A stretch of DNA of 64,000 nucleotides, taken from NCBI GenBank assembly GCA_030426125.1, contig JAUHZB010000001.1:26462-90461 (forward strand), in the 5' to 3' direction. How positions within the stretch are numbered: position 1 is the first letter of the stretch; each line of letters starts with the position of its first letter. Under the pieces are notes generated by a model. The model saw nothing but the letters and a program-made list of their open reading frames with translations, made no database searches and was not told the DNA's origin. The DNA is from a bacterium. GTDB lineage: Bacteria; Patescibacteriota; Saccharimonadia; Saccharimonadales; AWTP1-31. A program made the position numbers and the translations under genes. This document shows, piece after piece, positions 47,182-62,566 of the stretch.

Positions 47182-47254
47182 TTTAAATTTTAACCTTTCT
47201 TTATTCTCTATTGTTTATACCATAACTTGCTTGGGCTTATCAAGTTGTTTGTCC

Positions 47255-47659
47255 TTATGTAAACTGCGTCAATACAAACCTAACAATAATCTGAGCTAGA
47301 GCAACTATTACAAGACCTATAAGGGCATACATCACACTATTTTTTGCTTCGTTTATTTTACCGCTCTCACCCTGTGATGTCATGTACTTTACCCCACCGA
47401 TCATAACCATAACTATGGCTATTATTCCAATAATAGCACTAAATAGATTTAGGCCAGTCTGGATAATACCGTCCACAGAAGTTGAGTCTGGATTTTCGCA
47501 ACCGTCTCCACTAGCCGAACTCACCCCAGCTCCTGCACAAACCGCTTTCTTGGCTGTTTCATCTGCAGCTGAGGCCATTGACGGAAAAAGAGATATTGCA
47601 AACATGCTACCGAAAAACATAATTAAGGCTATAGTGGTTAATTGAATTTTTCTTATCAT
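47255..47659 (-). CDS. VirB2/TrbC-like pilin-family protein, paralog 2
   Basis: Signal ...MASA, Cys pair, GGVKYMTSQGESGKINEAKNSVMYALIGLVIVALAQ motif. Confidence 0.55.
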   Translation of the reverse strand: MIRKIQLTTIALIMFFGSMFAISLFPSMASAADETAKKAVCAGAGVSSASGDGCENPDSTSVDGIIQTGLNLFSAIIGIIAIVMVMIGGVKYMTSQGESGKINEAKNSVMYALIGLVIVALAQIIVRFVLTQFT

Positions 47660-48066
47660 AATCTACTCTGTATAAAATACACTATTGTGCGAGCTAAAAC
47701 CAGTACCACAATACCTACTGCAGTATAAATCAAACCAGTCCTTGCTTTAGTAACTTTTGCGCTATCTCCTGACGACATAATTAGTTGTAGTCCATTGTAC
47801 ATAACCATGACAACAGCGATAATTCCACCGACTGCAGCAACTAGATTAGCGATAGTAGATATCAAATTATCTTCACCAGCTAATAGATCAGTGTCTGTTG
47901 GAGTCTGACATACGGCAGAATCGCTTGCAGATCCAGCAGAACCGTCACGACAACCAGGGAATGGATCAACAGCACTAACAGTATCCATATTCACCAATGA
48001 AAAAGTTAAGAATAAGAAACTTATTAGTGTGAATAGCTGTAGGAACAAAGGAATTTTTTTAATCAT
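47656..48066 (-). CDS. VirB2/TrbC-like pilin-family protein, paralog 3
   Basis: Signal ...VSA, Cys pair, NGLQLIMSSGDSAKVTKARTGLIYTAVGIVVL motif; 4-nt overlap with paralog 2. Confidence 0.5.
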   Translation of the reverse strand: MIKKIPLFLQLFTLISFLFLTFSLVNMDTVSAVDPFPGCRDGSAGSASDSAVCQTPTDTDLLAGEDNLISTIANLVAAVGGIIAVVMVMYNGLQLIMSSGDSAKVTKARTGLIYTAVGIVVLVLARTIVYFIQSRL

Positions 48067-48347
48067 ACACGATTCACCACAAAGTTAAGGATAGTAGAAG
48101 CCGATACTGCCACAGCTAAACCTAGAGCGGCATAAATTATAGACTTTCGTGCCTTGGATAAAGCTTGTGGGTCATCTTGGGCTAACATAAACTTAATGCC
48201 TGATATCATAATAACTATCAGGGAAACTCCACCTATAATTACAAATACTATGTACAAAATTGTCTGAAATGGATCACGTGTTGTTGTATCTATATTTGGC
48301 AGTGGGCTTGTATCCACAGCAAGCAGCCTGGCTAAACTACTAAACAT
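48063..48347 (-). CDS. VirB2/TrbC-like pilin-family protein, paralog 4 (short, 94 aa, no clear signal peptide)
   Basis: ISGIKFMLAQDDPQALSKARKSIIYAALGLAVAV motif; 4-nt overlap with paralog 3. Confidence 0.45.
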   Translation of the reverse strand: MFSSLARLLAVDTSPLPNIDTTTRDPFQTILYIVFVIIGGVSLIVIMISGIKFMLAQDDPQALSKARKSIIYAALGLAVAVSASTILNFVVNRV

Positions 48348-48349
48348 AA

Positions 48350-48739
48350 CTAAAACCTCCCTGCAACATAAACCACAATACCTGATGCCAGAGTCACAAT
48401 AACCACTCCAATTAGAGCATTCATTATAGTAGTCTTAGCATCTTTCACACCCTCAGGTTCACCCTGGCTGGTAATAAATTTAAAACCGCCATAAATGATA
48501 AAGCCAAAGGCCACTAGTCCACCGAATCGAAGCAATATATCGATAATTGCTAAGCCAATTTTTAACAGATCGGCTGGGTTTGAAGCAAAATCTATATCTA
48601 CCTTACAGCTTTCGGTGAAATCCAAATACTTATACCAAGTAGGGAAAATACCAAGGAATAATGAATTCTTGCCACATTCGGGACCTGCTGCGAAAAGAAC
48701 AGGAAGATAACTGTTTAAGCTTGCTATGGTAAGCCACAT
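48350..48739 (-). CDS. VirB2/TrbC-like pilin-family protein, paralog 5
   Basis: Cys pair (CGK...C), GGFKFITSQGEPEGVKDAKTTIMNALIGVVIVTLA motif. Confidence 0.5.
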   Translation of the reverse strand: MWLTIASLNSYLPVLFAAGPECGKNSLFLGIFPTWYKYLDFTESCKVDIDFASNPADLLKIGLAIIDILLRFGGLVAFGFIIYGGFKFITSQGEPEGVKDAKTTIMNALIGVVIVTLASGIVVYVAGRF

Positions 48740-48740
48740 T

Positions 48741-49139
48741 TTATATTACCCCTCCTGGCCACAACCATTGTAGTAACCCTAAGAAAAATATATAAGTAAC
48801 AAGCGCCAATATAGCATTATTTATTTTGCTTTTGGCAGCCGAGACTTTCTGAGGGTCACTACCAGCAGAAGTATACTGAATTCCAGCAATAATTATCATA
48901 GCGGTTACTACTATACCAATGGTGTAGGTCAAGAGCTTTATAGCCGGATCTATTAGTTTCTCGGTAATATCACAGTCTTCAGTGCTATCACACCGACTAA
49001 AGCTTGGTTCTTCGTCAGCAGCTAATACTGTCTGTGAAGGAACAACCGCAACACTTAGCAGAAAGCTTGAAAAAATAGCTAAAAATATTAGTTTTATGTT
49101 TATTAGATTAAATGTTGGTTTTTTGAGTATTGTAAACAT
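48741..49139 (-). CDS. VirB2/TrbC-like pilin-family protein, paralog 6 (first in array)
   Basis: Signal ...VLAA, Cys pair (CDSTEDC), AGIQYTSAGSDPQKVSAAKSKINNAILALV motif. Confidence 0.5.
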   Translation of the reverse strand: MFTILKKPTFNLINIKLIFLAIFSSFLLSVAVVPSQTVLAADEEPSFSRCDSTEDCDITEKLIDPAIKLLTYTIGIVVTAMIIIAGIQYTSAGSDPQKVSAAKSKINNAILALVTYIFFLGLLQWLWPGGVI

Positions 49140-49400: not shown

Positions 49401-52400
49401 ATGAAAAAAATCAATCTAAAATTAATCAACTGGGCATTACTTTTTGTGTTTGCAATACAAATAACACTGCCTGTTATTTTACCCCCAACCAAGGTTAGCG
49501 CAGCAGAAAGTGTCGAAAGCTTAAAATCTAAAGTTAAACACATACAGAAACTCCGAGGACTTCGAAAGTGCATTGACGATAAACTAGCCACTGGAGGTAT
49601 CGGATTAGAAAGTGGTCCATTTACCCTAAAATTTATTGCTGGTAGAGCAGTGAATGCGTACGATACCCCCGTTGGCCATGGTGTTGATACTGGTGATGGT
49701 AAGTGGGACTGCGCTAGCGCGAGTGGCGACAGGGAGAACACTTGGTTCAAATTAATCCTAAAAAATGGTAGCGATAGTGAATACTACTCAGGTTGGAGTA
49801 GTGGCGGCGATAATTCCTATAAATCCGTTGCAAGCAAGAACCTAGCCGAAGAAGGGGGATATCTATACTTTATTAATCGGGATAATTTAGCTTCCCACTC
49901 TGGAGGTGGAAAGCTAACCGAAGGCCCTGCTAAAGGGAAAGTCAAAGATCAGCTAGGTAGAACAATAGCCGTGCTAGAAAGAGACTTAACTCAAGATGAA
50001 AAAGATGCCATGGCTTACCTTAACCTTTCATGGACTTTTGCTGATTCAAATGCCTGCAAAGCTCAGGAAGTTGACGCCAATAGCGGTGGAAAGAAAGTTA
50101 AAATTGGCAACAAATTATTCAGAGTAGGAAATCCTGGTGGTAAAAATTCAGTTGGTTTTGGCTTTTATGGTGATAACGGTCAAGGTATTGGAGATGGTAA
50201 TTTAACCTGTGAGCAAATAGCAGACAGGATGGCTTCCTTGGCTTCATCATATGAAAAAGCCACCGGTGACACATCCACAATACCCGAAGGATCAAACCGC
50301 GCCGTAGAAGCAGATGGCGACACCGAAGGAGACATAGAAGCACAATGCGATATCACCCCGAATCCGATCACTTGGATAATGTGTGCCTTAATTACTGGTT
50401 TTATAGAGGCCATTAACGCTCTTGATGAAGGAGTTACAAACCTACTAAACATTCGCGCCGCTGAATTCTTCGGCGAAGGCCAAGTAGGCGACAGCTTCAA
50501 TAGCGTTTGGGTAAGTGTTCGGACCATAGCTCTAGGTTTCCTGATAATTGTCGCTCTAGTTATGATAATCAGTACAGCTATAGGTGTTGGCCCCTTTGAT
50601 GCCTATACCGTTAAAAAGGTGATGCCTAGATTAGTAGCAGTTATTATATTAATACCGCTATCTTGGTCTATTGTTTATTTCATGATTGACATGACTAGTG
50701 TTATTGGATTTGGTGTGAGAAATCTAATTCAGGCACCTTTCGCTGCAAATATTGAAGGTATTGGCTTCGGTAGTACTGTATCTACAACTGCTGCAACAGG
50801 ACTACTTGTTGGAGGTTTATTCCTTGGATTACCTGGCCTTCTAAGCTTCTTGGTAGGTGGTTTTTTAGCAGTGCTAATTGCATATGTAGTACTTGTTCTT
50901 CGGCAAATATTCATAATACTTCTTGCTGTATTAGCACCCGTCGCACTGGTTGCAGCCATTCTGCCAAATACACAAAAAGCTTGGAAATTTTGGTGGGAAT
51001 CTTTTTGGAAGGCGCTCATAGTATTCCCAATTATTGCGGCATTTATTGCTGCAGGCCGAATATTTGCCCAAGTCGCCGAAACAACACAAGGTGGAGGTGT
51101 AGGTGACCTTATCGCGTTCGTGGCCTACTTTGCTCCGTATTTCCTAATACCTCAGGCCTTCAAAATGGCAGGAGGTCTACTAGGCAACCTAACTGGTGCT
51201 GTTAATGATCGAGGTCGTGGAGCCTTCGATAGACTTCGGAAGTTCCGCCAAGGGCAAATGCAACAGAATATGCAAAAAATTGATGAGGGGTCGAGATTTA
51301 GCGACAGAACTAAACTTGGCAGTAAGGTTAACTCGGGACTCCGCAAAACCAGTAAATTAAATGAGGCTGGTTTTCGACCAAGTAAAATGCGATCAAACAT
51401 CAATTCTGCAATATCGGCACAAGACCTAAGATTAGCCGATGAAAAAGGCGAAAAAGACGATGCAGTCCGTGCAATAATTAATGATGATGATATGCTAGAT
51501 TCATTTAAATTTGATGATACAGATGATCAAATTCGACAAAGACTACTTGATAGTGGAAGATTCGGCGAGGCCGGATCTAAAGAACTCAATGCCGCAGTTG
51601 CAACAGTGCGACGAGCAAAACGTACGGCTAATAGTAGCGTAAGAAGTCAAATTGCTGCCGTTGGTTCAACCGCAACAGGTACGGGAATAAAAACACATGC
51701 TGATATGTATCAAGCTGCCATTGATGCCTCAGATGGTAATCCATCAACCAGGAACGCTGTATTTGCCAAAATGCGTGCTGCGGCTGAACGCGCCGGTAAC
51801 TACTCATTGTCTGGCCCAGGCCATGCAGAATCAGTAGATGCAATGGAAAGCATGGCGAGAGGAGAGTCGGCATCGAGTATTAATGCCCGAATGCTTGCAA
51901 GATCCATGGAGGTACAAGGGGCGGGTAAAATCCTACAAGGAAAACCTACGGATGTTGAAAACTTAACCGCACAACTAGCAACAGACTATCAGTCCGCTAT
52001 GGCTGATGGAGATCTCGATAAAGCAACCTCACTTGCCGCACAAATGAAATCATTGCGAGATGCAGATAACGGAGCATCGCCTGAAAATACTAAACATGTT
52101 AATGCTATGCTTGCAGCTTCAGAGATAGATGAGGGTATGGTCAACCCCGAAACAGGTGCACCTTTGTCGATCGACGAACAATTCGCAAGGAAAATATCCG
52201 GGCGAATGGGCTCTTCGCTAACAACCGAAGTGAAGGACAAGTATGCCACCGAGCTAGCTGCGGAACATCAACGTCGTGTTAATTCTGAAAACATAGTTCG
52301 AGCTAGAAGCGGACAACCACAACTCACTGGAGCTGAGAGTTTAGCAAAATTTGACAAACTCGTAGATGAGACAGCTCTAAACGTCATTAATCAAAGGATT

Positions 52401-52496
52401 CGTACTCGTGCTGGATCGTACGACGTTGGAGGTGGTAATAGGAACGTTCCAGAAGAACTCAGGAGACAACAAGCCTTAAGTCAAGACGATAATTAA
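49401..52496 (+). CDS. VirB6/TrbL-like polytopic T4SS membrane protein with large N-terminal exported and C-terminal soluble domains
   Basis: 1031 aa; signal peptide, then at least 6 consecutive TM helices (residues about 375-610), divergently transcribed from pilin array. Confidence 0.55.
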   Translation: MKKINLKLINWALLFVFAIQITLPVILPPTKVSAAESVESLKSKVKHIQKLRGLRKCIDDKLATGGIGLESGPFTLKFIAGRAVNAYDTPVGHGVDTGDGKWDCASASGDRENTWFKLILKNGSDSEYYSGWSSGGDNSYKSVASKNLAEEGGYLYFINRDNLASHSGGGKLTEGPAKGKVKDQLGRTIAVLERDLTQDEKDAMAYLNLSWTFADSNACKAQEVDANSGGKKVKIGNKLFRVGNPGGKNSVGFGFYGDNGQGIGDGNLTCEQIADRMASLASSYEKATGDTSTIPEGSNRAVEADGDTEGDIEAQCDITPNPITWIMCALITGFIEAINALDEGVTNLLNIRAAEFFGEGQVGDSFNSVWVSVRTIALGFLIIVALVMIISTAIGVGPFDAYTVKKVMPRLVAVIILIPLSWSIVYFMIDMTSVIGFGVRNLIQAPFAANIEGIGFGSTVSTTAATGLLVGGLFLGLPGLLSFLVGGFLAVLIAYVVLVLRQIFIILLAVLAPVALVAAILPNTQKAWKFWWESFWKALIVFPIIAAFIAAGRIFAQVAETTQGGGVGDLIAFVAYFAPYFLIPQAFKMAGGLLGNLTGAVNDRGRGAFDRLRKFRQGQMQQNMQKIDEGSRFSDRTKLGSKVNSGLRKTSKLNEAGFRPSKMRSNINSAISAQDLRLADEKGEKDDAVRAIINDDDMLDSFKFDDTDDQIRQRLLDSGRFGEAGSKELNAAVATVRRAKRTANSSVRSQIAAVGSTATGTGIKTHADMYQAAIDASDGNPSTRNAVFAKMRAAAERAGNYSLSGPGHAESVDAMESMARGESASSINARMLARSMEVQGAGKILQGKPTDVENLTAQLATDYQSAMADGDLDKATSLAAQMKSLRDADNGASPENTKHVNAMLAASEIDEGMVNPETGAPLSIDEQFARKISGRMGSSLTTEVKDKYATELAAEHQRRVNSENIVRARSGQPQLTGAESLAKFDKLVDETALNVINQRIRTRAGSYDVGGGNRNVPEELRRQQALSQDDN

Positions 52497-52521: not shown

Positions 52522-53670
52522 GTGATAATATATAAAATAGACATGAAAACAAAAAACCACCCTCCTACAAACACAATCAACTCTAGCCCTGAAACACAAC
52601 CGCAACCTATAGAGATCCAAGAAGAAGAAGTTGCCTATAGTGGCTTGCGTCGTGAACTTTTTCAACGTGTCTCGGATGCAGCCTCAAACAGCATAGAAAA
52701 AACCTCGCAAACAGACCATGTAATCAGGACTGCTCCAAGTGGTGCAGAAAGAACCAGAGGCTTCTATAGCGCTCCTGAGCCTAACGACGTTAAGCCGGTC
52801 GGAATTTTCGAAAAAGCAGCAAGCCATATCAGACAAAGACAAGCTGCAAAAAAGCGTCGCCTAGAGTATGAACGTCGGCGGCTGCACAGTAGTCACGGAG
52901 GAGTCCCAGAGGACACAATAGACTACTCTAATCCAGAAAAACCCAAAAACCCAGTTTTTACGCTGGAAAGAGAATTCTCTCCAACAGCCCCAAGCGTCAA
53001 AAAAAGTGTTGAAAAATTAGAAAAAAACAGAGAAGATCAAGGGGTACCTAAAGCCAGCAAACTAGGTGTAAAGCCGATGAATGACTATGGTGAAGTCTAC
53101 AAAAAAAGAAGATCTTGGAGAGAGCGTAGAATAGAAAAAACCCAAACCAGAAAAGATCGGCGATTAAAAAAAGCTATTGATAGGCTAGACAGAAAACTCG
53201 AACGGGGCGAAGACGGTAAGACCTTGCATGGTAAATATCGAGATAAAAAAATTCATTTACTTGAATCTCTTAAACAATATTCCGATAAAAGAGTCGCTCA
53301 TGAAGACAGTAAACTTGTTAAAGTTGCACGGCAGAAAAACAAGCAAGAGTTAGCTAAATTTCTTGCAACGCACCCACCACTAGCTATGATGAGTCGAGCT
53401 GAAGCACAACAGCTGTCCGATTTACAGCGAGCAGGCGAAGCTCGTGTACTAGAAGCTGAAATGGAACTATGGATGAGGAGGTCGGGCGCAATTTCTGAAA
53501 ATGAGCGTAGGAAGTTAATTAGACAGCGTCGAGAAGCATCCTTTAGGGGAGATCAGCATAATCGACGATTGATGAAAACCGCAGCAGGCAGGCAACAACT
53601 AAAGCGACAATTCAATATAGACAATGGTGTATACGGAAGATTGCCCGAAGAAGACCAAAGTAGGAAATAA
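52522..53670 (+). CDS. hypothetical highly basic K/R/E-rich coiled-coil protein within T4SS locus
   Basis: 382 aa, runs of KKRR / RRRL, no TM; possibly nucleic-acid binding (inference only). Confidence 0.4.
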   Translation: MIIYKIDMKTKNHPPTNTINSSPETQPQPIEIQEEEVAYSGLRRELFQRVSDAASNSIEKTSQTDHVIRTAPSGAERTRGFYSAPEPNDVKPVGIFEKAASHIRQRQAAKKRRLEYERRRLHSSHGGVPEDTIDYSNPEKPKNPVFTLEREFSPTAPSVKKSVEKLEKNREDQGVPKASKLGVKPMNDYGEVYKKRRSWRERRIEKTQTRKDRRLKKAIDRLDRKLERGEDGKTLHGKYRDKKIHLLESLKQYSDKRVAHEDSKLVKVARQKNKQELAKFLATHPPLAMMSRAEAQQLSDLQRAGEARVLEAEMELWMRRSGAISENERRKLIRQRREASFRGDQHNRRLMKTAAGRQQLKRQFNIDNGVYGRLPEEDQSRK

Positions 53671-53717: not shown

Positions 53718-54782
53718 ATGGCAACCTACAAAGTACTCCAGGATATAGAAGCTGAAGACACCTTTCTAGGTCCTCTCACTCTAAAACAGTTCATCTTCGG
53801 GGCTGTGGCTATTGTTAGCTCATATGTTGCATTTTTGTTAATGACCAAAGGTCTATGGGTGTTAGCTATCCCACTACTGCCGGTAATCTTTGTGCTTGGC
53901 TTTCTAGCTTTCCCGTGGGGAAGAGATCAACCAACCGAAACATGGTTGCTAGCAAAAATTCGCTTTATGTTTAAACCCAGAATTCGTATCTGGAATCAGA
54001 CTGGTATTCAAGAACTAGTAAAGATTACGGCGCCACCACCAAAACTAGAATATACCGGAGATAACCTATCACAAACTGAGGTAAAAAGTCGCCTTAAAGC
54101 CTTGGCAGAAACCATCGACAGTCGTGGCTGGGTGGTTAAAAACGTCTCCGCTCAACAATACGCCAGCCCTAGCTACGGTCTGCTCTCTAAAAAGAATCAA
54201 TCTGATAGATTGGTTGAAGTATCTACTTTACCAAAAACCGAATCTCCAATAAATGACAATGGTATCGAAGACATGTTTGATAGCAGTAGGGCCGATCAAC
54301 TAACTAGTCAAATAGATCAAAGAAATCAAGATCACCGCAAGGAAACTGTCAGTCAGCTAAAAAGTGCCGCCAAAAAAGACAGCCAACCAGCCCCAGATCT
54401 ATGGTTCATGAATGAAGGTCCAGCCCCCAGCAAACCCGGCATGGCTAGCTTTGGAACCTCTACTGTCGCTCCTGGACAAAGTAGCTCTTCACTACCTAAT
54501 AGTTTTAGGTCAAAAAAACAGACTAAAGATCCAGACGAAAAAGCCATCTCTGAAAAACTAAAAGCTAAAAAAGATAAACCCGGGCAAGCATTCAGGAATC
54601 ACAAAACCATAGTTCCAGCCGACCAACAAAAACCATTAACACAACCGATGACAAGCGTGCCTGACCCTGTTACAATTGAACTAGCCAGAAACAACGATCG
54701 CAACATCGACAGTTTAGCTAGGGAGAGTACTAGAGCCCATAAACCACCTGAAGATGATGAAGTAGTTGTATCTCTGCATTAG
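53718..54782 (+). CDS. PrgI/VirB3-like two-TM T4SS protein with long S/P/K-rich C-terminal extension
   Basis: N-terminus DTFLGPLTLKQFIFGAVAIVSSYVAF (cf. PrgI-family F-GLT-RQ motif) followed by second TM; located immediately upstream of VirB4. Confidence 0.5.
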   Translation: MATYKVLQDIEAEDTFLGPLTLKQFIFGAVAIVSSYVAFLLMTKGLWVLAIPLLPVIFVLGFLAFPWGRDQPTETWLLAKIRFMFKPRIRIWNQTGIQELVKITAPPPKLEYTGDNLSQTEVKSRLKALAETIDSRGWVVKNVSAQQYASPSYGLLSKKNQSDRLVEVSTLPKTESPINDNGIEDMFDSSRADQLTSQIDQRNQDHRKETVSQLKSAAKKDSQPAPDLWFMNEGPAPSKPGMASFGTSTVAPGQSSSSLPNSFRSKKQTKDPDEKAISEKLKAKKDKPGQAFRNHKTIVPADQQKPLTQPMTSVPDPVTIELARNNDRNIDSLARESTRAHKPPEDDEVVVSLH

Positions 54783-54805
54783 AATAAAGTGGGTAAAACA
54801 GATAT

Positions 54806-55822
54806 ATGAATCCAACGCAGAACCAACCAGCTTCGGCTATGCCGCCTCAAGGACCTGGCGCTAACCCCTACGCAAATAATGCTCTACCAAACACCGCACC
54901 TCCAGCCGGAGGTATCCCAAACAACCAAGGTGTATCTTCTCAGGCTAATCCAATGCCTGGATCAGTTCCTTATACTGCCGCCTCCTTGCCGGGCAATAGT
55001 TTTAACCCACAATACAATCAGGCTCAACAACAGAACCAACAACCAAGTCAGCAACCTGGCGTTTCCCAGCCAAAAACAGTAGCTCCAAAATCTAACCCCA
55101 ACAGTACTCAAAACACTTTAAACATTGCCGAAATACGCGATGGTATCGTAATAATGAACGATGGTAGTTTTCGTTCTGTAGTGATGGTTAAGTCGGTAAA
55201 CTTCGATCTAATGAGCCCTCAGGAGCAGGAAGCTGTAGAGTATAGCTACCAAGGTTTTCTAAACTCGCTATATTTTCCAATTCAAATAAATATGCGTTCT
55301 CAAAAAGTTGATCTATCTCCGTATATCGAAAAATTAGACAAGATCAGAACCGAGCACGACAATATGCTTTTAGCTCTGCTAATGGAAGATTACATTAACT
55401 TCATGGGAGACCTCAGTCAGCAAACCAACATTATGGATAAAAAGTTCTACGTTGTTATACCCTACTTCCCAACCGTGGACATCCAAAATGCTCTTAGTAA
55501 CAGCAAGGGTCTAGTTAAGGGTCTCGGGGCACTATTTAGCAAAAGTCCTCAAACCCAAGTTACTATCAACGAAGTTGATCTAAACAAAGCTAAGGACGAA
55601 CTCAGAAACCGCGTACAAGCAGTCCTAGGTGGACTAATGCAATGTGGGGTACAAGGCTTACCGCTAGACACTCAAGAACTTATTGAGCTCTACTATGACA
55701 GCTACAACCCTGACACCGCCACCCGCCAGCAGCTAAAGAACTTCGACAACCTCACTGCACCTGTAATAACCAAGGGTCAAGGTCAAGCCCATAATCCAAA
55801 CCTAGACAGGGAGATGAACTAA
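54806..55822 (+). CDS. VirB4-like ATPase, N-terminal segment (Q/N/P-rich extension plus VirB4 N-domain), separate ORF
   Basis: Residues about 110-338: LNIAEIRDGIVIMNDGSFRSVVMVKSVNFDLMSPQEQEAV resembles the N-terminus of Gram-positive VirB4/TraE proteins; stops in TAATG overlapping next ORF. Confidence 0.5.
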   Translation: MNPTQNQPASAMPPQGPGANPYANNALPNTAPPAGGIPNNQGVSSQANPMPGSVPYTAASLPGNSFNPQYNQAQQQNQQPSQQPGVSQPKTVAPKSNPNSTQNTLNIAEIRDGIVIMNDGSFRSVVMVKSVNFDLMSPQEQEAVEYSYQGFLNSLYFPIQINMRSQKVDLSPYIEKLDKIRTEHDNMLLALLMEDYINFMGDLSQQTNIMDKKFYVVIPYFPTVDIQNALSNSKGLVKGLGALFSKSPQTQVTINEVDLNKAKDELRNRVQAVLGGLMQCGVQGLPLDTQELIELYYDSYNPDTATRQQLKNFDNLTAPVITKGQGQAHNPNLDREMN

Positions 55823-57738
55823 TGCTCGGTAAAAAGAAAAAAGTAGAGAATGATCCAGTAGCTCTTGCCCAACAACAAAGAGCCCGCGAGGAACAAGAAG
55901 TAAACGCTGCCTTTAATAAAGGTGTCACTGCTCTTCGTGACTTTATTGCTCCAAGCTCCATCGAATACCAAAACAACTTCTTCCACCTAGGAACTAGGAT
56001 TGCCAGAACCTTCTATGTTTTTGGTTATCCTCGGCAAATCTTCACCGGCTGGCTTAGTAGTATGATTAACCTCGATGAAGTCCTGGATCTATCTATCTAC
56101 ATCTACCCTGTAGAGAGTCAGGTGGTGCTAGAAAATCTTCGGAAGAAGGTAACCCAACTTGAAGCTGGACTTCAGATTGATGCTGAAAAGGGAAGAACCA
56201 GAGATCCAGGTAAGCAAGCAGCAATTCAAGATGCCGAAGAAATGCGCGACAAACTACAAGTGGGTGAAGAGAGATTCTTTAGATTTGGCCTATACTTTAC
56301 AATTTATGCTTCCAGTATGGATGAAATGGAGTTCGTAACCCATAAGATTGAATCAATACTCGGTCAGCAGCTAGTCTACTCCAAGGTAGCCACCTCTCAG
56401 CAAGAACAAGGTTTTAACAGCACCGTCCCCCAATTCACCGACCAGCTTCAAATCAGGCGCAACATGAACACCGGTGCTATTAGTACTAGCTTCCCATTTA
56501 CCAGCGCTGATCTTAGTCAAGACAACGGTATTTTATACGGCATCAACATGCACAACTCTGGTCTGGTAATATTCGATCGGTTTACCCTAGAAAACAGCAA
56601 CTCAGTGGTCTTCGCTAAGTCTGGTGCTGGTAAGTCATTTGCTGTAAAACTAGAAGCTCTTCGAAGCCTAATGTTTGGCACCGAGATTTTCATAATTGAC
56701 CCCGAAAACGAATACCAGAGAATGGCTGAAGCGGTTGGGGGAGCCTACGTTAGACTTAGTCTTAGTTCGGCCACTCGAATTAATCCATTTGACCTGCCAA
56801 AAGTAGTAGACACCGAAGAAGCTGACAATGCTCTCAGAAGCAACATAATTACCCTTCACGGTCTCTTGCGACTGATGATGGGTGGTGCCCAGGCTCAGAT
56901 GGCTGGCAGTGGAACAGCTGCCATGCCAGCCCTAAATCCAGTAGAAGAATCCGATCTTGATGCAGCCTTAATTGAAACTTACGCTAAAGCTGGAATCACC
57001 AACGATCCACTAACCCATAACTCCCAACCACCGACCATAATGGACCTATACGACACCTTACTTCATATGGGTGGTACCGGACCACAATTGGCTCAACGAA
57101 TCAGAAAATATACCACCGGTACCTTTGCTGGGATTTTCAGCCAACAATCCAATACAAACATAAACAACCCGCTAGTGGTCTTTAATATTCGTGACCTAGA
57201 AGATGAGCTCCGACCAGTAGCTATGTATATAGTCCTAAACTACATCTGGAACAAAACTAAAAGTGACCAGAAAAGACGCATGCTTGTCATTGACGAGGCC
57301 TGGCAGTTAATGAAATACGAAGATTCAGCCAACTTTATGTTTAGCCTTGCTAAACGAGCTAGGAAATATAACCTAGGCATCACCACCATCAGCCAAGACG
57401 TTGAAGACTTCATGGGTAGCCGAATGGGAAGGGCGATTGTAGCTAACGCTAGTATGCAACTACTACTAAAACAATCTTCTTCAGCTGTCGACGTATTAGC
57501 CGATGTCTTCAAGCTTACTAGTGAAGAAAAGAAAAGACTTAGCCAATTCCCAGTCGGTCAAGGTTTGTTCTTCGCTGGCCAAAGCCACGTGCATGTTCAA
57601 ATCCAAGCTAGCCCTACTGAGATGAATCTAATAACCACTAATCCTGACCAGATGCAAGAAATTAGTCAAAGTGGAGACCTAGACAAACCACAAGGCACTA
57701 TTGATTTACAAAACCGCTTAACACCAGGATCAGGATAA
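55822..57738 (+). CDS. virB4: VirB4/TraE/CagE-family T4SS ATPase, C-terminal segment
   Basis: Walker A AKSGAGKS, Walker B/DEAW (RMLVIDEAWQLM), upstream ...IEYQNNFFHLGTRIARTFYVFGYP conserved VirB4 region. Confidence 0.8.
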   Translation: MLGKKKKVENDPVALAQQQRAREEQEVNAAFNKGVTALRDFIAPSSIEYQNNFFHLGTRIARTFYVFGYPRQIFTGWLSSMINLDEVLDLSIYIYPVESQVVLENLRKKVTQLEAGLQIDAEKGRTRDPGKQAAIQDAEEMRDKLQVGEERFFRFGLYFTIYASSMDEMEFVTHKIESILGQQLVYSKVATSQQEQGFNSTVPQFTDQLQIRRNMNTGAISTSFPFTSADLSQDNGILYGINMHNSGLVIFDRFTLENSNSVVFAKSGAGKSFAVKLEALRSLMFGTEIFIIDPENEYQRMAEAVGGAYVRLSLSSATRINPFDLPKVVDTEEADNALRSNIITLHGLLRLMMGGAQAQMAGSGTAAMPALNPVEESDLDAALIETYAKAGITNDPLTHNSQPPTIMDLYDTLLHMGGTGPQLAQRIRKYTTGTFAGIFSQQSNTNINNPLVVFNIRDLEDELRPVAMYIVLNYIWNKTKSDQKRRMLVIDEAWQLMKYEDSANFMFSLAKRARKYNLGITTISQDVEDFMGSRMGRAIVANASMQLLLKQSSSAVDVLADVFKLTSEEKKRLSQFPVGQGLFFAGQSHVHVQIQASPTEMNLITTNPDQMQEISQSGDLDKPQGTIDLQNRLTPGSG

Positions 57739-57754: not shown

Positions 57755-60736
57755 GTGAGTACAGACCTAAAAGACAAGCCTTCCGGCATATACGATGACG
57801 AACAAAATAGCCACATAGATCGCATCCGTGATCTAGAAGCTCAAGAGGCAGCTGAAGCTCAAGAAGGCACCCATCAAACCAACGAAGATGGAAGCCCGCT
57901 AAGCGGATCCGCGATTAAAGCTAGTGAGTCAAAAAAACCAGCTTCCGGCAAAGATACTACAGATAAATCCTCAACTCCAAAATCCGGGGGATTATACAAC
58001 CCGGATGGAGACAAAAGCACTTCTAGATTCGGAAAACTAAAGTCCAAGTTGGGCAATATTGAAAACAAACGAAGAAAACTACTAGTTGTTGGTGGTAGTA
58101 TTGGTGGAGTCACCGCATTTATGCTAATACTGATATTACTAGCATCATTGAAGCTACCTCACTTCGGCCAAGTTTTAACAGCCACTGGCTACGCCAGATT
58201 AAATGGAATCATGCGTGAGCGAATGGCCCAAAACCTATTCGATAACGCTGCCACTACCGGTGATGGCCAGATATCTCTGCGTGCTAGAACGATGCGCGAA
58301 AGAATAACCGGCCAAAATTTAAACAAACAGATAACTAAACTAGGTCAGGAAAATAGGCTTATATTTGAATTGGACGGAGAAAATGTAACCGGCATCAAGC
58401 TTCCACAAGAAGGTAAAACCATATCTCTTGATACAGTTTCACAGGAACTATTCGATAAAGATTATTCGGAGATAAAAAGAATCCGAGGAGTTAGAGAGCG
58501 TATGACAGTTCGAGCAGAATACGTTAAGCAAGTAAAAGCTGGTGTGAGCGAAGGACTAGCGACTGAAACCCGGGCAGTGAGAGGAAGAGCTACCGCAACT
58601 GCTCTAAAAAACAGCGGATTTAAATATAATCGCTGGGCCAACAAAGCAAGGGAGTATTTAGGTAAAACACCGAAAGAAGCAGCTATAAAAAATACCGTTG
58701 AGACCATTGAACAGGTTGGAGGTGATAAGTTTGTTGAAACGGGAATAAAACAATATGACGATTTATCCGAAGAGCTCAAAAAAAATGGCAGTCGAATCGA
58801 GAAGTTTATGGAAAAAAACGGTGGGGTATTCGATAAAGAAGCCTATGTAAAGCAAGTGAGCACTGACTTCACCACTGGTCAAAAAATTACGGAAGCAGCC
58901 AATAAAGTGGGTGTTGGCCTGATGATAGGAACACTAGCTTGTATGGCTAACCAAGCATTTTCTAATGTAGATGAAATAGCCGAAAATAACGAACTGGCGG
59001 CCTCAAGAGCTGCTGCCGCATTACCAGCGGCTCAAGATCAGCAAATACGCGGTGAGGCTAACGATGAGGCGATTGGCGCAGAAGCAAACACCCTAACAGG
59101 TGCTGAAAATTCACAGTACTACCAATACGCAACCGGGCAAGAAATTACCGCAGAAGAGGTTGAGGTACCCAATACTAAACCAAAATACGGTAATATGGCA
59201 GATATTATCTCTCTTGCTACCAGTCCAACAACTTTTATACCTGGAGGCTTTGCCATACCAGAGCCAGCTAAAGACGCCATTAACAATGGTTTTTGTTCTG
59301 CCCTACTAGACCCCAAGGGTGCTGTCGTTGCTGCAGCTGCCGAAATAGTAGTAACTGCAGCTGCCTCGGTATTTACCGGAGGTGGTGCAGCTGTTGCCAG
59401 GGAAACCGGTGGTAGAGGCGCACTACTAGTAATATCTAGAGAGTTAGCTAGCGCAACACTAGCGACCGGAAGAGGTGTTGTTAGTAAGAAAAGCGCCGCA
59501 ACACTCCTAGGCTTTGCCGCCTTCCAGCAGGGACTAGAAATGGTCACCAGGCAGTTAGCTGGAGTTGAATTCATGGGGGGTGAAACCGGTCCACAAAAAT
59601 TCGAGATAGCAGCAGTTGGTAATAATGTACTACAATCAAAGAGAATGCGTGGGATAGGTGGTGCTCCACTAACCAATGAAGAGGCTAAGCAAGTAGACCA
59701 ACCACTCATAAAACAAAAAACTGCTGAATACCAAAACCAGAATGTTTTTGCTAGATATCTATCAATTGAAAATCCATATTCATTAATTGGAAAACTAAGC
59801 GCTATTGTACCTGGGGATATTGTTAGCCTAAAACAATCTAGCTTAACTATGGTTAATAGCTTCGCTTCAGTATTTAATATAAAAAATATACTTAATCCTG
59901 TAATGTCAATTGCGGGCCTAAACACCAAAGCTCAGGCAGTGGATAACTACAACCCGTATTATGACGTCACTCAATGGGGCTTCTCGCCATCCGAACTAAA
60001 GAAAATGCGCGAAGACCCCACCTACAACTACTACACCAATCTTGATTACATTAGCGAAGAAACTATAGCCGAATACGACGAAAAATATGGTGATTGCTTT
60101 GACACATCTAAGACCAATTATGAAGTCGAGAAAATGTCAAAATGCAGCAAAGATGAGCTAAGGGGAAACGATCAAATCTTCCGCTATAGGTTAACTTTAT
60201 TAGATGAAGAAACCGTATCGATGCTAGAACAAAAACCAGAAGATATAGGAAAAGACCCTGTAGATGATGGTGGTCAAAACATTAACTCAACTGGAAAAAT
60301 TGCGCCAAGTGGTGGAAGTGGATCTGTAGGTATTGAACAAACCTCACCAATCCCCGGAACCAACAAACGCATCCACACAGACGTTCTTCCTCAATTCCTA
60401 GACATGATTGATGCTGCCCGAGCAGATGGCATAGACCTAATGCCTATTAGTTCAGCTTGGAGAGATCCACAGAAACAAATAGAACTAAGGAAGAGTAACT
60501 GCCCAGATTGGCGTAATTCACCATCCGGGGATTGCAATCCACCAACAGCCAGACCCGGAACCTCAAAACATGAAAGTGGTAGGGCGGTAGATTTTAGCAA
60601 TATGTGCTTCTCTAGAAACGGATCAAGCTCATGTAAGGGAAATCCTAGGTGGGAATGGCTCAAAGCAAACGCCGCAACCTACGGATTCTACCCGTTAAAA
60701 AGTGAGGCCTGGCACTGGTCAACCACAGGTACCTAA
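57755..60736 (+). CDS. large N-terminally anchored protein with C-terminal M15 (LAS/VanY-like) zinc D-Ala-D-Ala carboxypeptidase domain
   Basis: Single TM near residue 120; C-terminal SKHESGRAVDF (H-x6-D zinc site) and EAWHWS motifs typical of peptidase M15/VanY. Confidence 0.6.
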   Translation: MSTDLKDKPSGIYDDEQNSHIDRIRDLEAQEAAEAQEGTHQTNEDGSPLSGSAIKASESKKPASGKDTTDKSSTPKSGGLYNPDGDKSTSRFGKLKSKLGNIENKRRKLLVVGGSIGGVTAFMLILILLASLKLPHFGQVLTATGYARLNGIMRERMAQNLFDNAATTGDGQISLRARTMRERITGQNLNKQITKLGQENRLIFELDGENVTGIKLPQEGKTISLDTVSQELFDKDYSEIKRIRGVRERMTVRAEYVKQVKAGVSEGLATETRAVRGRATATALKNSGFKYNRWANKAREYLGKTPKEAAIKNTVETIEQVGGDKFVETGIKQYDDLSEELKKNGSRIEKFMEKNGGVFDKEAYVKQVSTDFTTGQKITEAANKVGVGLMIGTLACMANQAFSNVDEIAENNELAASRAAAALPAAQDQQIRGEANDEAIGAEANTLTGAENSQYYQYATGQEITAEEVEVPNTKPKYGNMADIISLATSPTTFIPGGFAIPEPAKDAINNGFCSALLDPKGAVVAAAAEIVVTAAASVFTGGGAAVARETGGRGALLVISRELASATLATGRGVVSKKSAATLLGFAAFQQGLEMVTRQLAGVEFMGGETGPQKFEIAAVGNNVLQSKRMRGIGGAPLTNEEAKQVDQPLIKQKTAEYQNQNVFARYLSIENPYSLIGKLSAIVPGDIVSLKQSSLTMVNSFASVFNIKNILNPVMSIAGLNTKAQAVDNYNPYYDVTQWGFSPSELKKMREDPTYNYYTNLDYISEETIAEYDEKYGDCFDTSKTNYEVEKMSKCSKDELRGNDQIFRYRLTLLDEETVSMLEQKPEDIGKDPVDDGGQNINSTGKIAPSGGSGSVGIEQTSPIPGTNKRIHTDVLPQFLDMIDAARADGIDLMPISSAWRDPQKQIELRKSNCPDWRNSPSGDCNPPTARPGTSKHESGRAVDFSNMCFSRNGSSSCKGNPRWEWLKANAATYGFYPLKSEAWHWSTTGT

Positions 60737-60739
60737 ACT

Positions 60740-62566
60740 ATGAAAAATATTCCGCTACTTAAACCATTATTAAACTACACACTAGGATTTCTAATAATTC
60801 TAATTCTAGTATTTATTAATGTAGCTAACGCCTACGCAGTAAGCGTGGAAGAAATATTTACGCCATATTATAATCCAAACTTAAATAACTGCCAGCCCAC
60901 TAGTACTGGATTCACTAAAGTGCCTGACGGTGGAAAACTTTACGTGCTAGGTGATTCAATCACGGTTGGAATCGAAGACACCCTCAGGAATAAACTGCAA
61001 GAAAAAGACATAACCCCCTACATAAATGCATCTGTATCTAGGTCATGGAACGGAGCTGGAAATAGCGTTGTATCAACTCAAGGAACACCACTTCCCGGCA
61101 AAGACGCCATTAAAGAAGATGAAGCAAAGCAGGCTGGAGTTGTGTCGGGGGCTAGCGGTATAGTTATCGCCCTTGGCACTAACGGTGGCGCCTCCAGCAA
61201 CCCAATAGAAAGCGCTATTGATGAAATTAGAAGAATAAACTCCAGCGCTCCTATATGGTGGGTAAATACCGTTGGATCTTCAGCTTGGCCAAACAATATC
61301 AGTAACCTCGGATCATTCAATGAACAGCTAGTCGATCTATCCGCTACAAAAAACTTTCAAATTATTAATTGGTTTTCCGCGGTCAATCCAACCGGAGACC
61401 CCACAACAACCCCCACCAACGACCCAACACGCCTGCTAAGTGACGGCATCCATCCTAACGCTGCTGGTATTCAGAAGCTATCTACTAAAATTGTTACAGA
61501 TATTAGTGGTGGCGACTCCAGTGGCTCAACCACCGCTAGTGAAACCGGGGTTGCATGTTGCTCTGGGGCAGGAACTACAGTAGCCGGGAACAACAACGAA
61601 GAAAAAGTATGGAATTATCTTGTTGGTAACCTACAGCTTAGCGCTATTCAAGCTGCTGGAATTATGGGTAATATTCAACAGGAATCGGGATTCAGCACCA
61701 CAATAGTTAACAAAAGCAGTGGTGCTTATGGACTAATTCAGTGGCTTGGCGGTAGAAAAACCGCCCTGCAAAATTTTGCCAGGGGGCAGGGAAAGGATAT
61801 GGGTGACATATCGGTACAATTAGAATTCATGAAACAAGAGCTGGAATCTGACTACTATAGACGTCGAGTATTCGACCCAATAAAAGCCTCGCAGTCCCTA
61901 GAGGAAAGCACTAGAATATGGCTGGAAAAATTCGAAATTCCTTGTACACCAGGGTCGGCTGCTTGCGCGGAGGAAATGAATGTACGTTTACCGTTCGCTC
62001 AAAACTGGCTAACTAGGTTTGGTTCAAACACTGCCACCGCAGTAGGCAACTCACCCTCATCAACTTGCGCATCGCAAGAAGGTGGCACAGGGGTTAGCGC
62101 CGATGGTTTCGTCTTCCCGCTCAGGACTAATCAGCAAACTATTAAATCTAAGGGTTGGTGCTTCGAAAGTCAATCTAACTGCCACCATGACTACAACGCA
62201 GCAGATATTTTTGCCCCAACCGGAACCGAGGTTATTGCAGCTAGAGGTGGGCAAGTTATCCTTGTTAAATCAGGCCCAACTCGAATAGCTATCAAGGCGG
62301 ATGATGGCAATATATACTACTACACACATATGGGCGCTGGTACCGCAGTCGTCAGTAAAGGACAAACCGTTGCAGCGGGTGCTACCCTCGGTAGGGTAGG
62401 CACAAAAGCCGATGCCGCCGGAACACCCGAACACCTACATATTGATATATTGCCAGGTGATAGATATGACAATAGGCCAGGATGTGCTGGATCAGCTTGC
62501 AGTAGTTTACCCTTCATTAATATCCAACCACCACTCACCGAAGCATTTAAGAATCTACCGGAGTAA
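60740..62566 (+). CDS. tri-domain cell-wall hydrolase: SGNH/GDSL esterase, lysozyme-like (phage-tail-lysozyme/SLT-type) and M23 (LytM) peptidase
   Basis: LYVLGDSITVG (GDS block I) and ALGTNG; AIQAAGIMGNIQQESGF...GAYGLIQW (catalytic Glu region of CwlT/phage tail lysozyme-type muramidases); C-terminal HMGAG...TPEHLHIDI (M23 HxxxD ... HxH). Confidence 0.65.
   Translation: MKNIPLLKPLLNYTLGFLIILILVFINVANAYAVSVEEIFTPYYNPNLNNCQPTSTGFTKVPDGGKLYVLGDSITVGIEDTLRNKLQEKDITPYINASVSRSWNGAGNSVVSTQGTPLPGKDAIKEDEAKQAGVVSGASGIVIALGTNGGASSNPIESAIDEIRRINSSAPIWWVNTVGSSAWPNNISNLGSFNEQLVDLSATKNFQIINWFSAVNPTGDPTTTPTNDPTRLLSDGIHPNAAGIQKLSTKIVTDISGGDSSGSTTASETGVACCSGAGTTVAGNNNEEKVWNYLVGNLQLSAIQAAGIMGNIQQESGFSTTIVNKSSGAYGLIQWLGGRKTALQNFARGQGKDMGDISVQLEFMKQELESDYYRRRVFDPIKASQSLEESTRIWLEKFEIPCTPGSAACAEEMNVRLPFAQNWLTRFGSNTATAVGNSPSSTCASQEGGTGVSADGFVFPLRTNQQTIKSKGWCFESQSNCHHDYNAADIFAPTGTEVIAARGGQVILVKSGPTRIAIKADDGNIYYYTHMGAGTAVVSKGQTVAAGATLGRVGTKADAAGTPEHLHIDILPGDRYDNRPGCAGSACSSLPFINIQPPLTEAFKNLPE

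What the first reader, a model, noticed from the sequence alone, without database searches (positions are those of the whole stretch)
54806..57738. VirB4 ATPase encoded as two overlapping ORFs (TAATG) with a Q/N/P-rich prion-like N-terminal extension
ORF 54806-55822 carries the N-terminal VirB4 domain and ORF 55822-57738 carries the remaining VirB4 core with the Walker A/B ATPase motifs. They are in different frames and share only the A of TAA/ATG. Together they approximate a full-length Gram-positive VirB4. This could be a genuine split, a frameshift pseudogene, or a sequencing/assembly indel. The first ORF also begins with about 110 aa of Q/N/P-rich low complexity that is unusual for VirB4.
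Basis: partly seen in the sequence, partly recalled or inferred. Interest (0 to 1): 0.55.

Follow-up and report, generated by a model that had tools for sequence, protein, structure and literature searches.

The report
Two-gene VirB4 secretion ATPase in Saccharibacteria
The two overlapping genes are a genuine, conserved split of the type IV secretion motor VirB4 into a small N-terminal subunit (TrsD-like) and the ATPase body; this arrangement is already described for Patescibacteria and staphylococcal plasmids, so it is real but ordinary.

Summary
ORF1 (54806-55822, 338 aa) and ORF2 (55822-57738, 638 aa) share one base in TAATG, and ORF1 starts with about 100 aa of P/N/Q-rich low complexity.

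ORF1's globular part (aa 101-338) is a TrsD/"TraC-like" domain, remotely homologous to the first ~170 positions of VirB4. ORF2 covers the rest and carries Walker A and B. NCBIfam profile coordinates, a Foldseek match to R388 TrwK/VirB4 and natural 860-910 aa fusion proteins support this.

It is not a frameshift pseudogene or an assembly error. All 80 related Saccharibacteria species keep two genes, and 51 keep the same 1-nt stop/start overlap. Plasmid pSK41 has the same trsC-trsD-trsE order and the same split point.

TrsD homologues next to VirB4 in Patescibacteria, and their homology to the VirB4 N-terminus, were published in 2025. The homologue is reported essential in Ca. Southlakia epibionticum.

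The N-terminal tail is a lineage-wide disordered region of 41-130 aa. It is rich in proline (about 23%) and almost uncharged, so "prion-like" is not supported.

Verdict: a real, translationally coupled two-subunit VirB4. Already known, low interest. Minor extras: a fused clade, and "bridge ORFs" across inserts in some relatives.

The parts
54789..54794 (+). GTGGGT, a Shine-Dalgarno-like motif upstream of the ORF1 start
   Evidence: One search gives the position. A GTGGG-type motif lies 15-21 nt upstream of the start in 71/78 related loci.
54806..55105 (+). N-terminal P/N/Q/A-rich disordered extension of ORF1 (aa 1-100)
   Evidence: Composition. An extension of 41-130 aa (median 77.5) is present in 80/80 species, with P 23%, A 13.5%, Q 12%, and D+E+K+R about 4%. 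The start M[D/N/E]P is conserved in 74/78, and the NPNSTQ motif before the domain in 69/80.
55106..55822 (+). TrsD / TraC-like domain of ORF1 (aa 101-338), equivalent to the first ~170-200 residues of the VirB4 N-terminal domain. The last ~20 aa are disordered.
   Evidence: NCBIfam: TrsD NF041427 at 1.6e-6; VirB4_plasma profile positions 92-234/894; CD1110 positions 2-103/752; TIGR00929 positions 5-167/792. Precomputed PF26593 TraC-like. AF2 pLDDT 84. The top 14 Foldseek hits are all R388 TrwK/VirB4. hhalign against pSK41 TrsD gives probability 87%, E 3.7e-6.
55808..55813 (+). AGGGAG Shine-Dalgarno for ORF2, embedded in the 3' end of ORF1, 8 nt before the ATG
   Evidence: One search gives the position. 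GGAG/GAGG occurs in the last 18 nt of the ORF1 homologue in 51/78 loci. Junction sequences are listed.
55820..55824 (+). TAATG stop/start overlap (1 shared nt)
   Evidence: Among 80 species loci, 46 have TAATG, 4 TAGTG and 1 TGATG.
55822..57738 (+). VirB4 body (TrsE-like): the second half of the N-terminal domain (aa ~30-228) plus the RecA-type ATPase C-terminal domain
   Evidence: NCBIfam CD1110 family: 351.7 bits against a cut-off of 325, aa 32-591 on profile positions 182-733/752. Pfam P-loop_TraG, AAA_10 and DUF87. Weak CagE_TrbE_VirB hit on aa 69-206. 4AG5 at 2e-47. 23% identity to pSK41 TrsE over aa 15-603 versus 3-626, E 2e-36.
56617..56637 (+). Walker A (KSGAGKS)
57280..57303 (+). Walker B (MLVIDEAW)
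53718..54782 (+). PrgI/VirB3-like protein (aa 5-91) with a ~260-aa low-complexity C-terminal tail, immediately upstream
   Evidence: Pfam PrgI PF12666 at 2.2e-11, above the cut-off.
49401..52496 (+). First gene of the operon: a 1031-aa protein with several hydrophobic segments, in the position where VirB6/PrgH-like genes sit. The assignment is inferred, not tested.
   Evidence: Translation. No Pfam or NCBIfam hit. VirB6 homologues near virB4 are reported in PMC12102498.
46762..49139 (-). Divergently oriented array of six VirB2-like pilin genes
   Evidence: All six hit Pfam T4SS_pilin PF18895 above the cut-off. This matches the six-pilin array described for Ca. Southlakia.
57755..62566 (+). Two large cell-wall hydrolase genes downstream (993 aa with a VanY domain; 608 aa with M23, lysozyme and GDSL domains)

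Best explanation
The locus encodes the VirB4 motor of a Saccharibacteria (Patescibacteria) monoderm-type type IV secretion system as two separate polypeptides. ORF1 is a TrsD/TraC-like protein that carries the first sub-domain of the VirB4 N-terminal domain, preceded by a disordered P/Q/N/A-rich tail. ORF2 is a TrsE-like protein that carries the rest of the N-terminal domain and the Walker A/B ATPase domain.

Shown: the split is ancient and under selection. ORF2 has its own Shine-Dalgarno (AGGGAG) inside the end of ORF1, and its ATG overlaps ORF1's stop by one base.

Inferred: ribosomes terminating on ORF1 re-initiate on ORF2 (translational coupling), which would give matched amounts of the two proteins. 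The two proteins would then assemble non-covalently into a VirB4-like N-terminal domain. By analogy with R388 TrwK, this domain binds the VirB3/PrgI protein encoded just upstream and mediates VirB4-VirB4 contacts at the membrane. The disordered tail is probably a flexible cytoplasmic tether or interaction arm; its function is unknown.
For: - **Collinear, complementary profile matches.** ORF1 aa ~98-263 falls on positions 2-167 of full-length VirB4 models (CD1110, TIGR00929) and 92-234 of VirB4_plasma. ORF2 aa 26-604 falls on positions 182-733/752, 292-893/894 and 249-734/792.
- **Structure.** The AF2 model of ORF1 aa 101-338 has pLDDT 84. Its top 14 PDB matches are all R388 TrwK/VirB4, best E 2e-4, TMq 0.52 over 212 columns.
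- **Natural fusions.** P0220 (898 aa) aligns with ORF1 at aa 13-228 (41% identity) and with ORF2 at aa 310-889 (50%). It occurs on 5 contigs from at least 3 sequencing runs, directly after a PrgI gene. At least 65 further fused clusters of 860-910 aa exist in Berkelbacteria and other Patescibacteria. A Clostridium plasmid has a fused 869-aa form.
- **Conserved split.** It is found in 80/80 species loci, and 51/80 have the 1-nt overlap. VirB4 there is 624-702 aa and 80-95% identical to ORF2. More than 7,800 ORF1 homologues scored E <= 0.001; the best 120 listed are 222-357 aa.
- **Same arrangement elsewhere.** pSK41 has trsC-trsD-trsE, and TrsE aligns with ORF2 from its residue 3. A Pontibacillus megaplasmid has the same layout.
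- **Literature.** TrsD homologues with remote homology to the VirB4 N-terminus are the most abundant T4SS component in Patescibacteria. Of these, 1,664 are associated with VirB4, and the homologue is essential in Ca. Southlakia epibionticum ML1 (PMC12102498). In R388, VirB3 wraps the VirB4 N-terminal domain (residues 15-400) and VirB4 dimer contacts are made by N-terminal domains (PMC9259494).
Against: - The sequence homology of ORF1 to VirB4 or TrsD is remote. All NCBIfam scores are far below the curated whole-protein cut-offs.
- The local Pfam scan found nothing for ORF1.
- hhalign of the ORF1 family against a single TrwK sequence was not significant.
- Physical association of ORF1 with ORF2, and translational coupling itself, were not tested.
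- The only whole-chain model (of the fused homologue) was of low confidence (pLDDT 62.7, pTM 0.43). No docking geometry can be claimed.
- The role of the disordered tail is pure inference.
Confidence: 0.85

Rival explanations
1. Frameshift pseudogene or 1-nt sequencing/assembly error in a gene that is normally one continuous virB4.
For: Fused 860-910 aa versions exist in other Patescibacteria. The two ORFs differ by one frame and touch at a single base.
Against: All 80 related species-level genomes, assembled independently, have two ORFs, and 51 have the same T(A/G)(A/G)TG junction. An identical ORF1 protein is on record from NCBI and from an independent Logan assembly. Both proteins are strongly conserved: ORF1 domain ~76-96%, VirB4 80-95% identity. 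A dedicated SD precedes the ORF2 ATG. The ORF2 frame has a stop only 27 nt upstream of its ATG. Junction frames differ between species, with gaps of 2-6 nt and one same-frame case.
Confidence: 0.02
2. Programmed -1 ribosomal frameshifting near the end of ORF1 produces a fused full-length VirB4 in addition to the two separate products.
For: ORF2 is in the -1 frame relative to ORF1.
Against: The ORF2 frame is open for only 27 nt before the ATG, and that stretch (AACCTAGACAGGGAGATGAAC) has no X XXY YYZ slippery heptamer. In relatives the relative frame and spacing vary, with gaps of 2-6 nt or 43-489 nt. That variation is incompatible with a conserved frameshift site.
Confidence: 0.02
3. ORF1 is an independent accessory protein that resembles the VirB4 N-terminus but does not complete ORF2. 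For example, it could be a regulator or adaptor that acts separately, and ORF2 alone would be a sufficient minimal VirB4.
For: [quoted passage not shown] In the class Gracilibacteria, TrsD homologues are mostly not next to virB4. ORF2 alone passes the NCBIfam CD1110 VirB4 cut-off, and PGAP names such 621-aa proteins VirB4-like.
Against: ORF2 lacks the first ~180 positions of every full-length VirB4 profile, and ORF1 supplies exactly those. Recurrent natural fusions keep the same order. The gene pair is tightly coupled in 80/80 species. Open 'bridge' frames are retained across inserts in 12/12 relatives, P ~9e-8.
Confidence: 0.1
4. The Q/N/P-rich extension is a prion-like, amyloid- or condensate-forming domain that drives clustering of the secretion ATPase.
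For: In the window's protein Q+N is about 30% and charged residues are nearly absent. A tail is present in 80/80 species.
Against: Proline is the commonest residue: 20% here and 23% across relatives. From general knowledge of prion-propensity scales, this strongly disfavours amyloid. Length (41-130 aa) and sequence are poorly conserved apart from the termini. More distant TrsD homologues and pSK41 TrsD lack the tail. No prion-prediction program was available.
Confidence: 0.05

Closest known systems
TrsD-TrsE of staphylococcal conjugative plasmids pSK41/pGO1 (MPF-FATA, pGO1 subclass)
   Same: The gene order is the same: VirB3-like (trsC / PrgI), then a ~230-aa soluble TrsD domain, then a 640-670-aa VirB4. 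The split point is the same, because TrsE aligns with ORF2 from its residue 3. The ORF1 family matches TrsD by profile (hhalign probability 87%, E 3.7e-6; NF041427 at 1.6e-6).
   Different: Sequence identity is very low (~19-23%). pSK41 trsD and trsE are separated by 14 nt rather than overlapping. TrsD has no P/Q/N-rich N-terminal tail. The pSK41 system is a plasmid conjugation machine with a relaxase and a coupling protein, whereas this one is chromosomal with a six-pilin array.
Patescibacteria T4SS with a TrsD homologue (Quinonero-Coronel et al. 2025, PMC12102498; Ca. Southlakia epibionticum ML1 T4SS, Wang et al. 2023, PMC10633639)
   Same: This is the same system. It has a pilin array, a large membrane protein, PrgI, TrsD, VirB4 and cell-wall hydrolases, and it lies close to dnaN/recF.
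   Different: Nothing of substance differs. Neither 'split' nor 'disordered' occurs in PMC12102498. I did not search the papers for the 1-nt overlap or for TrsD-VirB4 fusions, so I cannot say those details are unreported.
Single-chain VirB4 ATPases (R388 TrwK; CD1110 family; mycoplasma Mbov_0397 family; fused Berkelbacteria clade)
   Same: Domain content and order are the same when ORF1's domain and ORF2 are concatenated (238 + 638 = 876 aa, against 750-910 aa). The fold of ORF1's domain matches TrwK.
   Different: Here the chain is broken after the first N-terminal sub-domain. In the fused Patescibacteria clade, a ~80-aa P/A-rich linker occupies the position of the break.

Membership tests
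TrsD/TraD family (NCBIfam NF041427) / Pfam TraC-like PF26593 | Match to the family profile at the curated threshold | tested here: inconclusive
   NF041427 gives E 1.6e-6 but only 28 bits against a cut-off of 200. PF26593 is listed as a precomputed hit for ORF1 and for all of the listed homologues, yet the local Pfam scan returned no hit. hhalign against pSK41 TrsD gives probability 87%.
TrsD/TraD family (NCBIfam NF041427) / Pfam TraC-like PF26593 | Gene sits between the VirB3-like gene and virB4 | tested here: met
   The order is PrgI (53718-54782), ORF1, ORF2. pSK41 has the same trsC-trsD-trsE order.
TrsD/TraD family (NCBIfam NF041427) / Pfam TraC-like PF26593 | Soluble ~200-230 aa domain with remote homology to the VirB4 N-terminus | tested here: met
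   No hydrophobic segment is present (maximum KD19 0.95). VirB4 profile positions 2-167 are matched. Foldseek matches TrwK.
VirB4 family T4SS ATPase (ORF2) | Walker A and Walker B motifs, and a RecA-type C-terminal domain like 4AG5 | tested here: met
   (E 2e-47).
VirB4 family T4SS ATPase (ORF2) | Curated family HMM passed | tested here: met
   NF045971 CD1110 family: 351.7 bits against a cut-off of 325.
VirB4 family T4SS ATPase (ORF2) | Complete N-terminal domain in one chain | tested here: not met
   ORF2 begins at profile position ~182 (CD1110), 292 (VirB4_plasma) and 249 (TIGR00929). ORF1 carries the missing part.
Frameshift pseudogene | Close relatives carry the intact single ORF, and the break is idiosyncratic | tested here: not met
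   80/80 species are split, and 51 share the same overlap.
Programmed -1 frameshift gene | Slippery heptamer, with an open overlap region conserved in frame | tested here: not met
   Only 27 nt are open, there is no slippery site, and the frame varies in relatives.
Prion-like (Q/N-rich) domain | High Q/N content with low proline and low charge, scored positive by PLAAC/PAPA | tested here: inconclusive
   Q+N is 30% and charge is low, but P is 20-23%. PLAAC and PAPA were not available.

The most novel reading that the evidence does not exclude
The split is functional, not neutral. On this reading a dissociable TrsD-like subunit, carrying a lineage-specific proline/glutamine-rich disordered arm, acts as a regulated adaptor. 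It would control assembly of the VirB4 hexamer on PrgI, or recruit cargo, in the essential and still function-unknown Saccharibacteria T4SS. Selection for strict co-translation would be strong enough to keep 'bridge' reading frames open across palindromic inserts in relatives.
Probability: 0.15. Interest if true: 0.5.

Novelty: already known. Interest (0 to 1): 0.2.

Why it matters
The T4SS of Saccharibacteria is essential for their epibiotic growth, and what it transports is unknown. A correct parts list for its motor therefore matters for anyone modelling or engineering the system.

This finding shows that automated annotation labels the N-terminal sub-domain gene "hypothetical protein", although the VirB4 motor is really two chains. 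A natural split next to natural fusions gives a convenient handle for testing what the first VirB4 N-terminal sub-domain does. It adds no new kind of system.

Tried and rejected
- **Pfam on ORF1.** The local scan gave no hit even at E <= 10. The precomputed PF26593 label could not be reproduced locally.
- **PDB sequence search with ORF1.** Nothing significant was found.
- **hhalign of the ORF1 family against a single TrwK sequence.** Not significant (probability 1.6%), although the weak alignment falls at TrwK residues 94-141.
- **Internal duplication test (ORF1 domain against the ORF2 N-terminus).** No signal, probability 0.6%. Rejected.
- **Modelling an ORF1+ORF2 chain.** Three alignments (A2-A4) were unusable because MAFFT spread the short ORF1-only rows over the long query (checked). 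Abandoned.
- **Modelling the natural fusion P0220.** With 63 fused homologues the model reached only pLDDT 62.7 and pTM 0.43. Its Foldseek alignment to TrwK runs end to end (~930-990 columns, E down to 3e-17) but with RMSD ~26 Å. No inter-domain geometry is claimed.
- **The search for related loci with the diverse alignment A1.** Failed for lack of a conserved stretch. The single-protein query was used instead, so the 80 loci are all close relatives (76-96% identity).
- **Frameshift-pseudogene, assembly-error and programmed-frameshift readings.** Considered and rejected, as set out under the rival explanations.
Full report
**Observation**

ORF1 (54806-55822, 338 aa) and ORF2 (55822-57738, 638 aa) lie on the + strand in different frames. 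The TAA stop of ORF1 and the ATG of ORF2 share one A, giving TAATG at 55820-55824.

ORF2 has Walker A (aa 266-272) and Walker B (aa 487-494). It hits Pfam P-loop_TraG, AAA_10 and DUF87. Residues 229-605 match the crystallised C-terminal domain of Thermoanaerobacter VirB4 (4AG5, E 2e-47).

The first 100 residues of ORF1 are P 20%, N 15%, Q 15%, A 12% and S 10%. The description is therefore accurate.

**What ORF1 is**

Pfam scanned locally gives nothing for ORF1, and the PDB sequence search gives nothing either. NCBIfam, however, places ORF1 aa ~98-263 on several models:

| Model | Profile positions matched | E-value |
|---|---|---|
| TrsD/TraD family NF041427 | 13-142/201 | 1.6e-6 |
| VirB4_plasma | 92-234/894 | 6.7e-6 |
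| CD1110 family | 2-103/752 | 1.6e-4 |
| TIGR00929 VirB4_CagE | 5-167/792 | 3e-3 |

ORF2 aa 32-591 covers the complementary positions 182-733/752 of the CD1110 model, at 351.7 bits against a cut-off of 325. The two ORFs are thus collinear and complementary on every full-length VirB4 profile.

Structure prediction points the same way. An AlphaFold2 model of ORF1 aa 101-338 reaches pLDDT 84 and pTM 0.73. Its 14 best PDB matches are all chains of R388 TrwK/VirB4 (best E 2e-4, probability 1.00, TMq 0.52 over 212 columns); the next hits are noise.

The protein collection's precomputed annotation calls the domain PF26593 "TraC-like".

**Split, not broken**

The globular part of ORF1 has more than 7,800 homologues with E <= 0.001. 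The best 120 listed are 222-357 aa, ~77-100% identical, and come from Saccharibacteria/Patescibacteria.

Against 1.84 billion cluster representatives there are 2,259 hits. Of the top 150, 149 are short standalone proteins.

In 80 loci from different Saccharibacteria species, every one has a stop after the ORF1 homologue and a separate VirB4 gene.
- 46 have TAATG, 4 TAGTG and 1 TGATG, so 51 share the 1-nt overlap.
- Most of the rest have gaps of 2-6 nt.
- VirB4 there is 624-702 aa and 80-95% identical to ORF2.

An SD-like AGGGAG lies 8 nt before the ORF2 ATG, inside ORF1's last codons. A similar motif occurs in 51/78 relatives.

The ORF2 frame is closed 27 nt upstream of its ATG and there is no slippery heptamer. 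The relative frame also varies between species, so programmed frameshifting is excluded.

A pseudogene or a 1-nt assembly error is not tenable either.

**Fused counterparts**

One representative, P0220 (898 aa), aligns with ORF1 aa 100-321 at its residues 13-228 (41% identity). It aligns with ORF2 aa 17-611 at residues 310-889 (50% identity). A P/A-rich linker of about 80 aa lies between the two parts.

P0220 is found on five contigs from at least three sequencing runs, directly after a PrgI gene.

A search with P0220 found at least 65 further clusters of 860-910 aa with the same TraC-like + DUF87 + P-loop_TraG architecture. They are labelled Berkelbacteria or Patescibacteria, and one is labelled Saccharimonadales. 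They sit next to split VirB4s of 578-630 aa in other Berkelbacteria.

Both forms also occur in Bacillota. A Pontibacillus megaplasmid is split: a 274-aa hypothetical protein is followed by a 621-aa "CD1110 family VirB4". A Clostridium argentinense plasmid is fused: PrgI is followed by an 869-aa ATPase.

**Precedent and literature**

pSK41 carries trsC (VirB3-like), trsD (227 aa) and trsE (672 aa) in the same order.
- ORF2 aligns with TrsE from TrsE residue 3 (23% identity, E 2e-36).
- The ORF1 family profile matches TrsD (hhalign probability 87%, E 3.7e-6).

Quinonero-Coronel et al. [quoted passage not shown] They describe it as the most abundant T4SS component in Patescibacteria, with 2,272 homologues, 1,664 of them associated with VirB4. 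They note that the homologue in Ca. Southlakia epibionticum ML1 is essential.

The rest of the window fits that published system:
- six T4SS_pilin genes on the opposite strand (compare);
- PrgI upstream;
- two cell-wall hydrolases downstream;
- recF and dnaN nearby.

**How it most likely works**

Shown: there are two conserved genes, ORF2 has its own SD, and stop and start overlap.

Inferred: terminating ribosomes re-initiate on ORF2, giving matched amounts of the two proteins. The proteins then associate to rebuild a VirB4 N-terminal domain.

In R388 that domain (residues 15-400) is wrapped by VirB3 and makes the VirB4 dimer contacts (PMC9259494). ORF1 is therefore expected to sit at the PrgI/membrane-proximal face.

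I could not obtain a reliable model of the assembly. The fused-homologue model had pLDDT 62.7. It aligned to TrwK end to end, but with a large RMSD.

**The N-terminal tail**

All 80 relatives have a tail of 41-130 aa (median 77.5). Its composition is P 23%, A 13.5%, Q 12%, N 9% and G 8%, with D+E+K+R about 4%.

Only the ends of the tail are conserved:
- the start M(D/N/E)P in 74/78 relatives, preceded by a GTGGG-type motif in 71/78;
- NPNSTQ just before the domain in 69/80.

The tail is therefore translated and is lineage-typical. More distant homologues and pSK41 TrsD lack it. In the fused clade, similar P/A-rich sequence forms the linker instead.

The high proline content argues against a prion-like amyloid domain. 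A flexible disordered arm is the better description, and its function is unknown.

**Side observation in relatives**

In 12 of the 80 species, a hairpin-forming insert of 43-289 nt built of short tandem repeats separates the two genes. All 12 keep a reading frame open across the insert (expected 4.1; P ~9e-8).

These frames usually start at an ATGA overlapping the trsD-like stop and end at the virB4 start. The peptides they encode are not conserved. This is what selection for uninterrupted translational coupling would produce.

**Verdict**

This is a real, conserved, two-gene VirB4 (TrsD-like plus TrsE-like) in the known Saccharibacteria T4SS. Already known; low interest.

Noticed in passing
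Relatives: L021, L022, L041, L045, L047, L050, L060, L063, L065, L066, L075, L078, between the trsD-like stop and the virB4 start: Hairpin-forming inserts of 43-289 nt, built of short tandem repeats, separate the two genes. All 12 keep one frame open across the insert (shuffle expectation 4.1, P ~9e-8). The frame usually starts at an ATGA/GTGA on the trsD-like stop and ends on the virB4 ATG, and the peptides are not conserved. This looks like a 'bridge ORF' that preserves translational coupling.
   Followed up: partly
L084:6001-8697 (P0220) and proteins P0271-P0339: A whole clade of Patescibacteria (mostly labelled Berkelbacteria) encodes the fused TraC-like+VirB4 protein of 860-910 aa, with a P/A-rich linker at the position of the break. 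Other Berkelbacteria have 578-630 aa VirB4, so fission or fusion has happened more than once.
   Followed up: partly
window 46762-49139 (-): Array of six divergent VirB2-like pilin genes (all Pfam T4SS_pilin, above the cut-off), divergently transcribed from the T4SS operon. It matches the essential six-pilin array described for Ca. Southlakia.
   Followed up: yes
window 53718-54782, 52522-53670, 57755-58100: Neighbouring T4SS proteins also carry long low-complexity regions. PrgI has a ~260-aa S/P/K/Q-rich C-terminal tail. A 382-aa K/R/E-rich protein has no family hit. The 993-aa VanY-domain hydrolase has a ~110-aa polar N-terminus. Disordered decoration seems general in this operon.
   Followed up: no
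window 54806-55822 (ORF1): The protein collection lists PF26593 (TraC-like) for ORF1 and all its listed homologues. The local Pfam-A hmmscan returns no hit even at E <= 10, so the two Pfam copies or thresholds disagree.
   Followed up: partly
Plasmid hits H14, H19, H35 (Haloarcula, Haloprofundus, Haladaptatus): tblastn with the ORF1 domain also finds weak matches (23-26% identity over ~80-90% of the query) on haloarchaeal plasmids, one of them annotated as a conjugal transfer protein. The TrsD-like domain may therefore extend to archaeal conjugation systems.
   Followed up: no
L042:5712-6201: In one relative, a 133-aa ORF resembling (from memory) the four-helix-bundle '23S rRNA intervening-sequence protein' type is inserted between the trsD-like gene and virB4.
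   Followed up: no
L081:13908-15591 (just beyond the window's 3' side): recF-like (SMC_N/AAA_23) and dnaN genes follow the T4SS operon. The locus is therefore likely origin-proximal, as reported for Patescibacteria T4SS.
   Followed up: no
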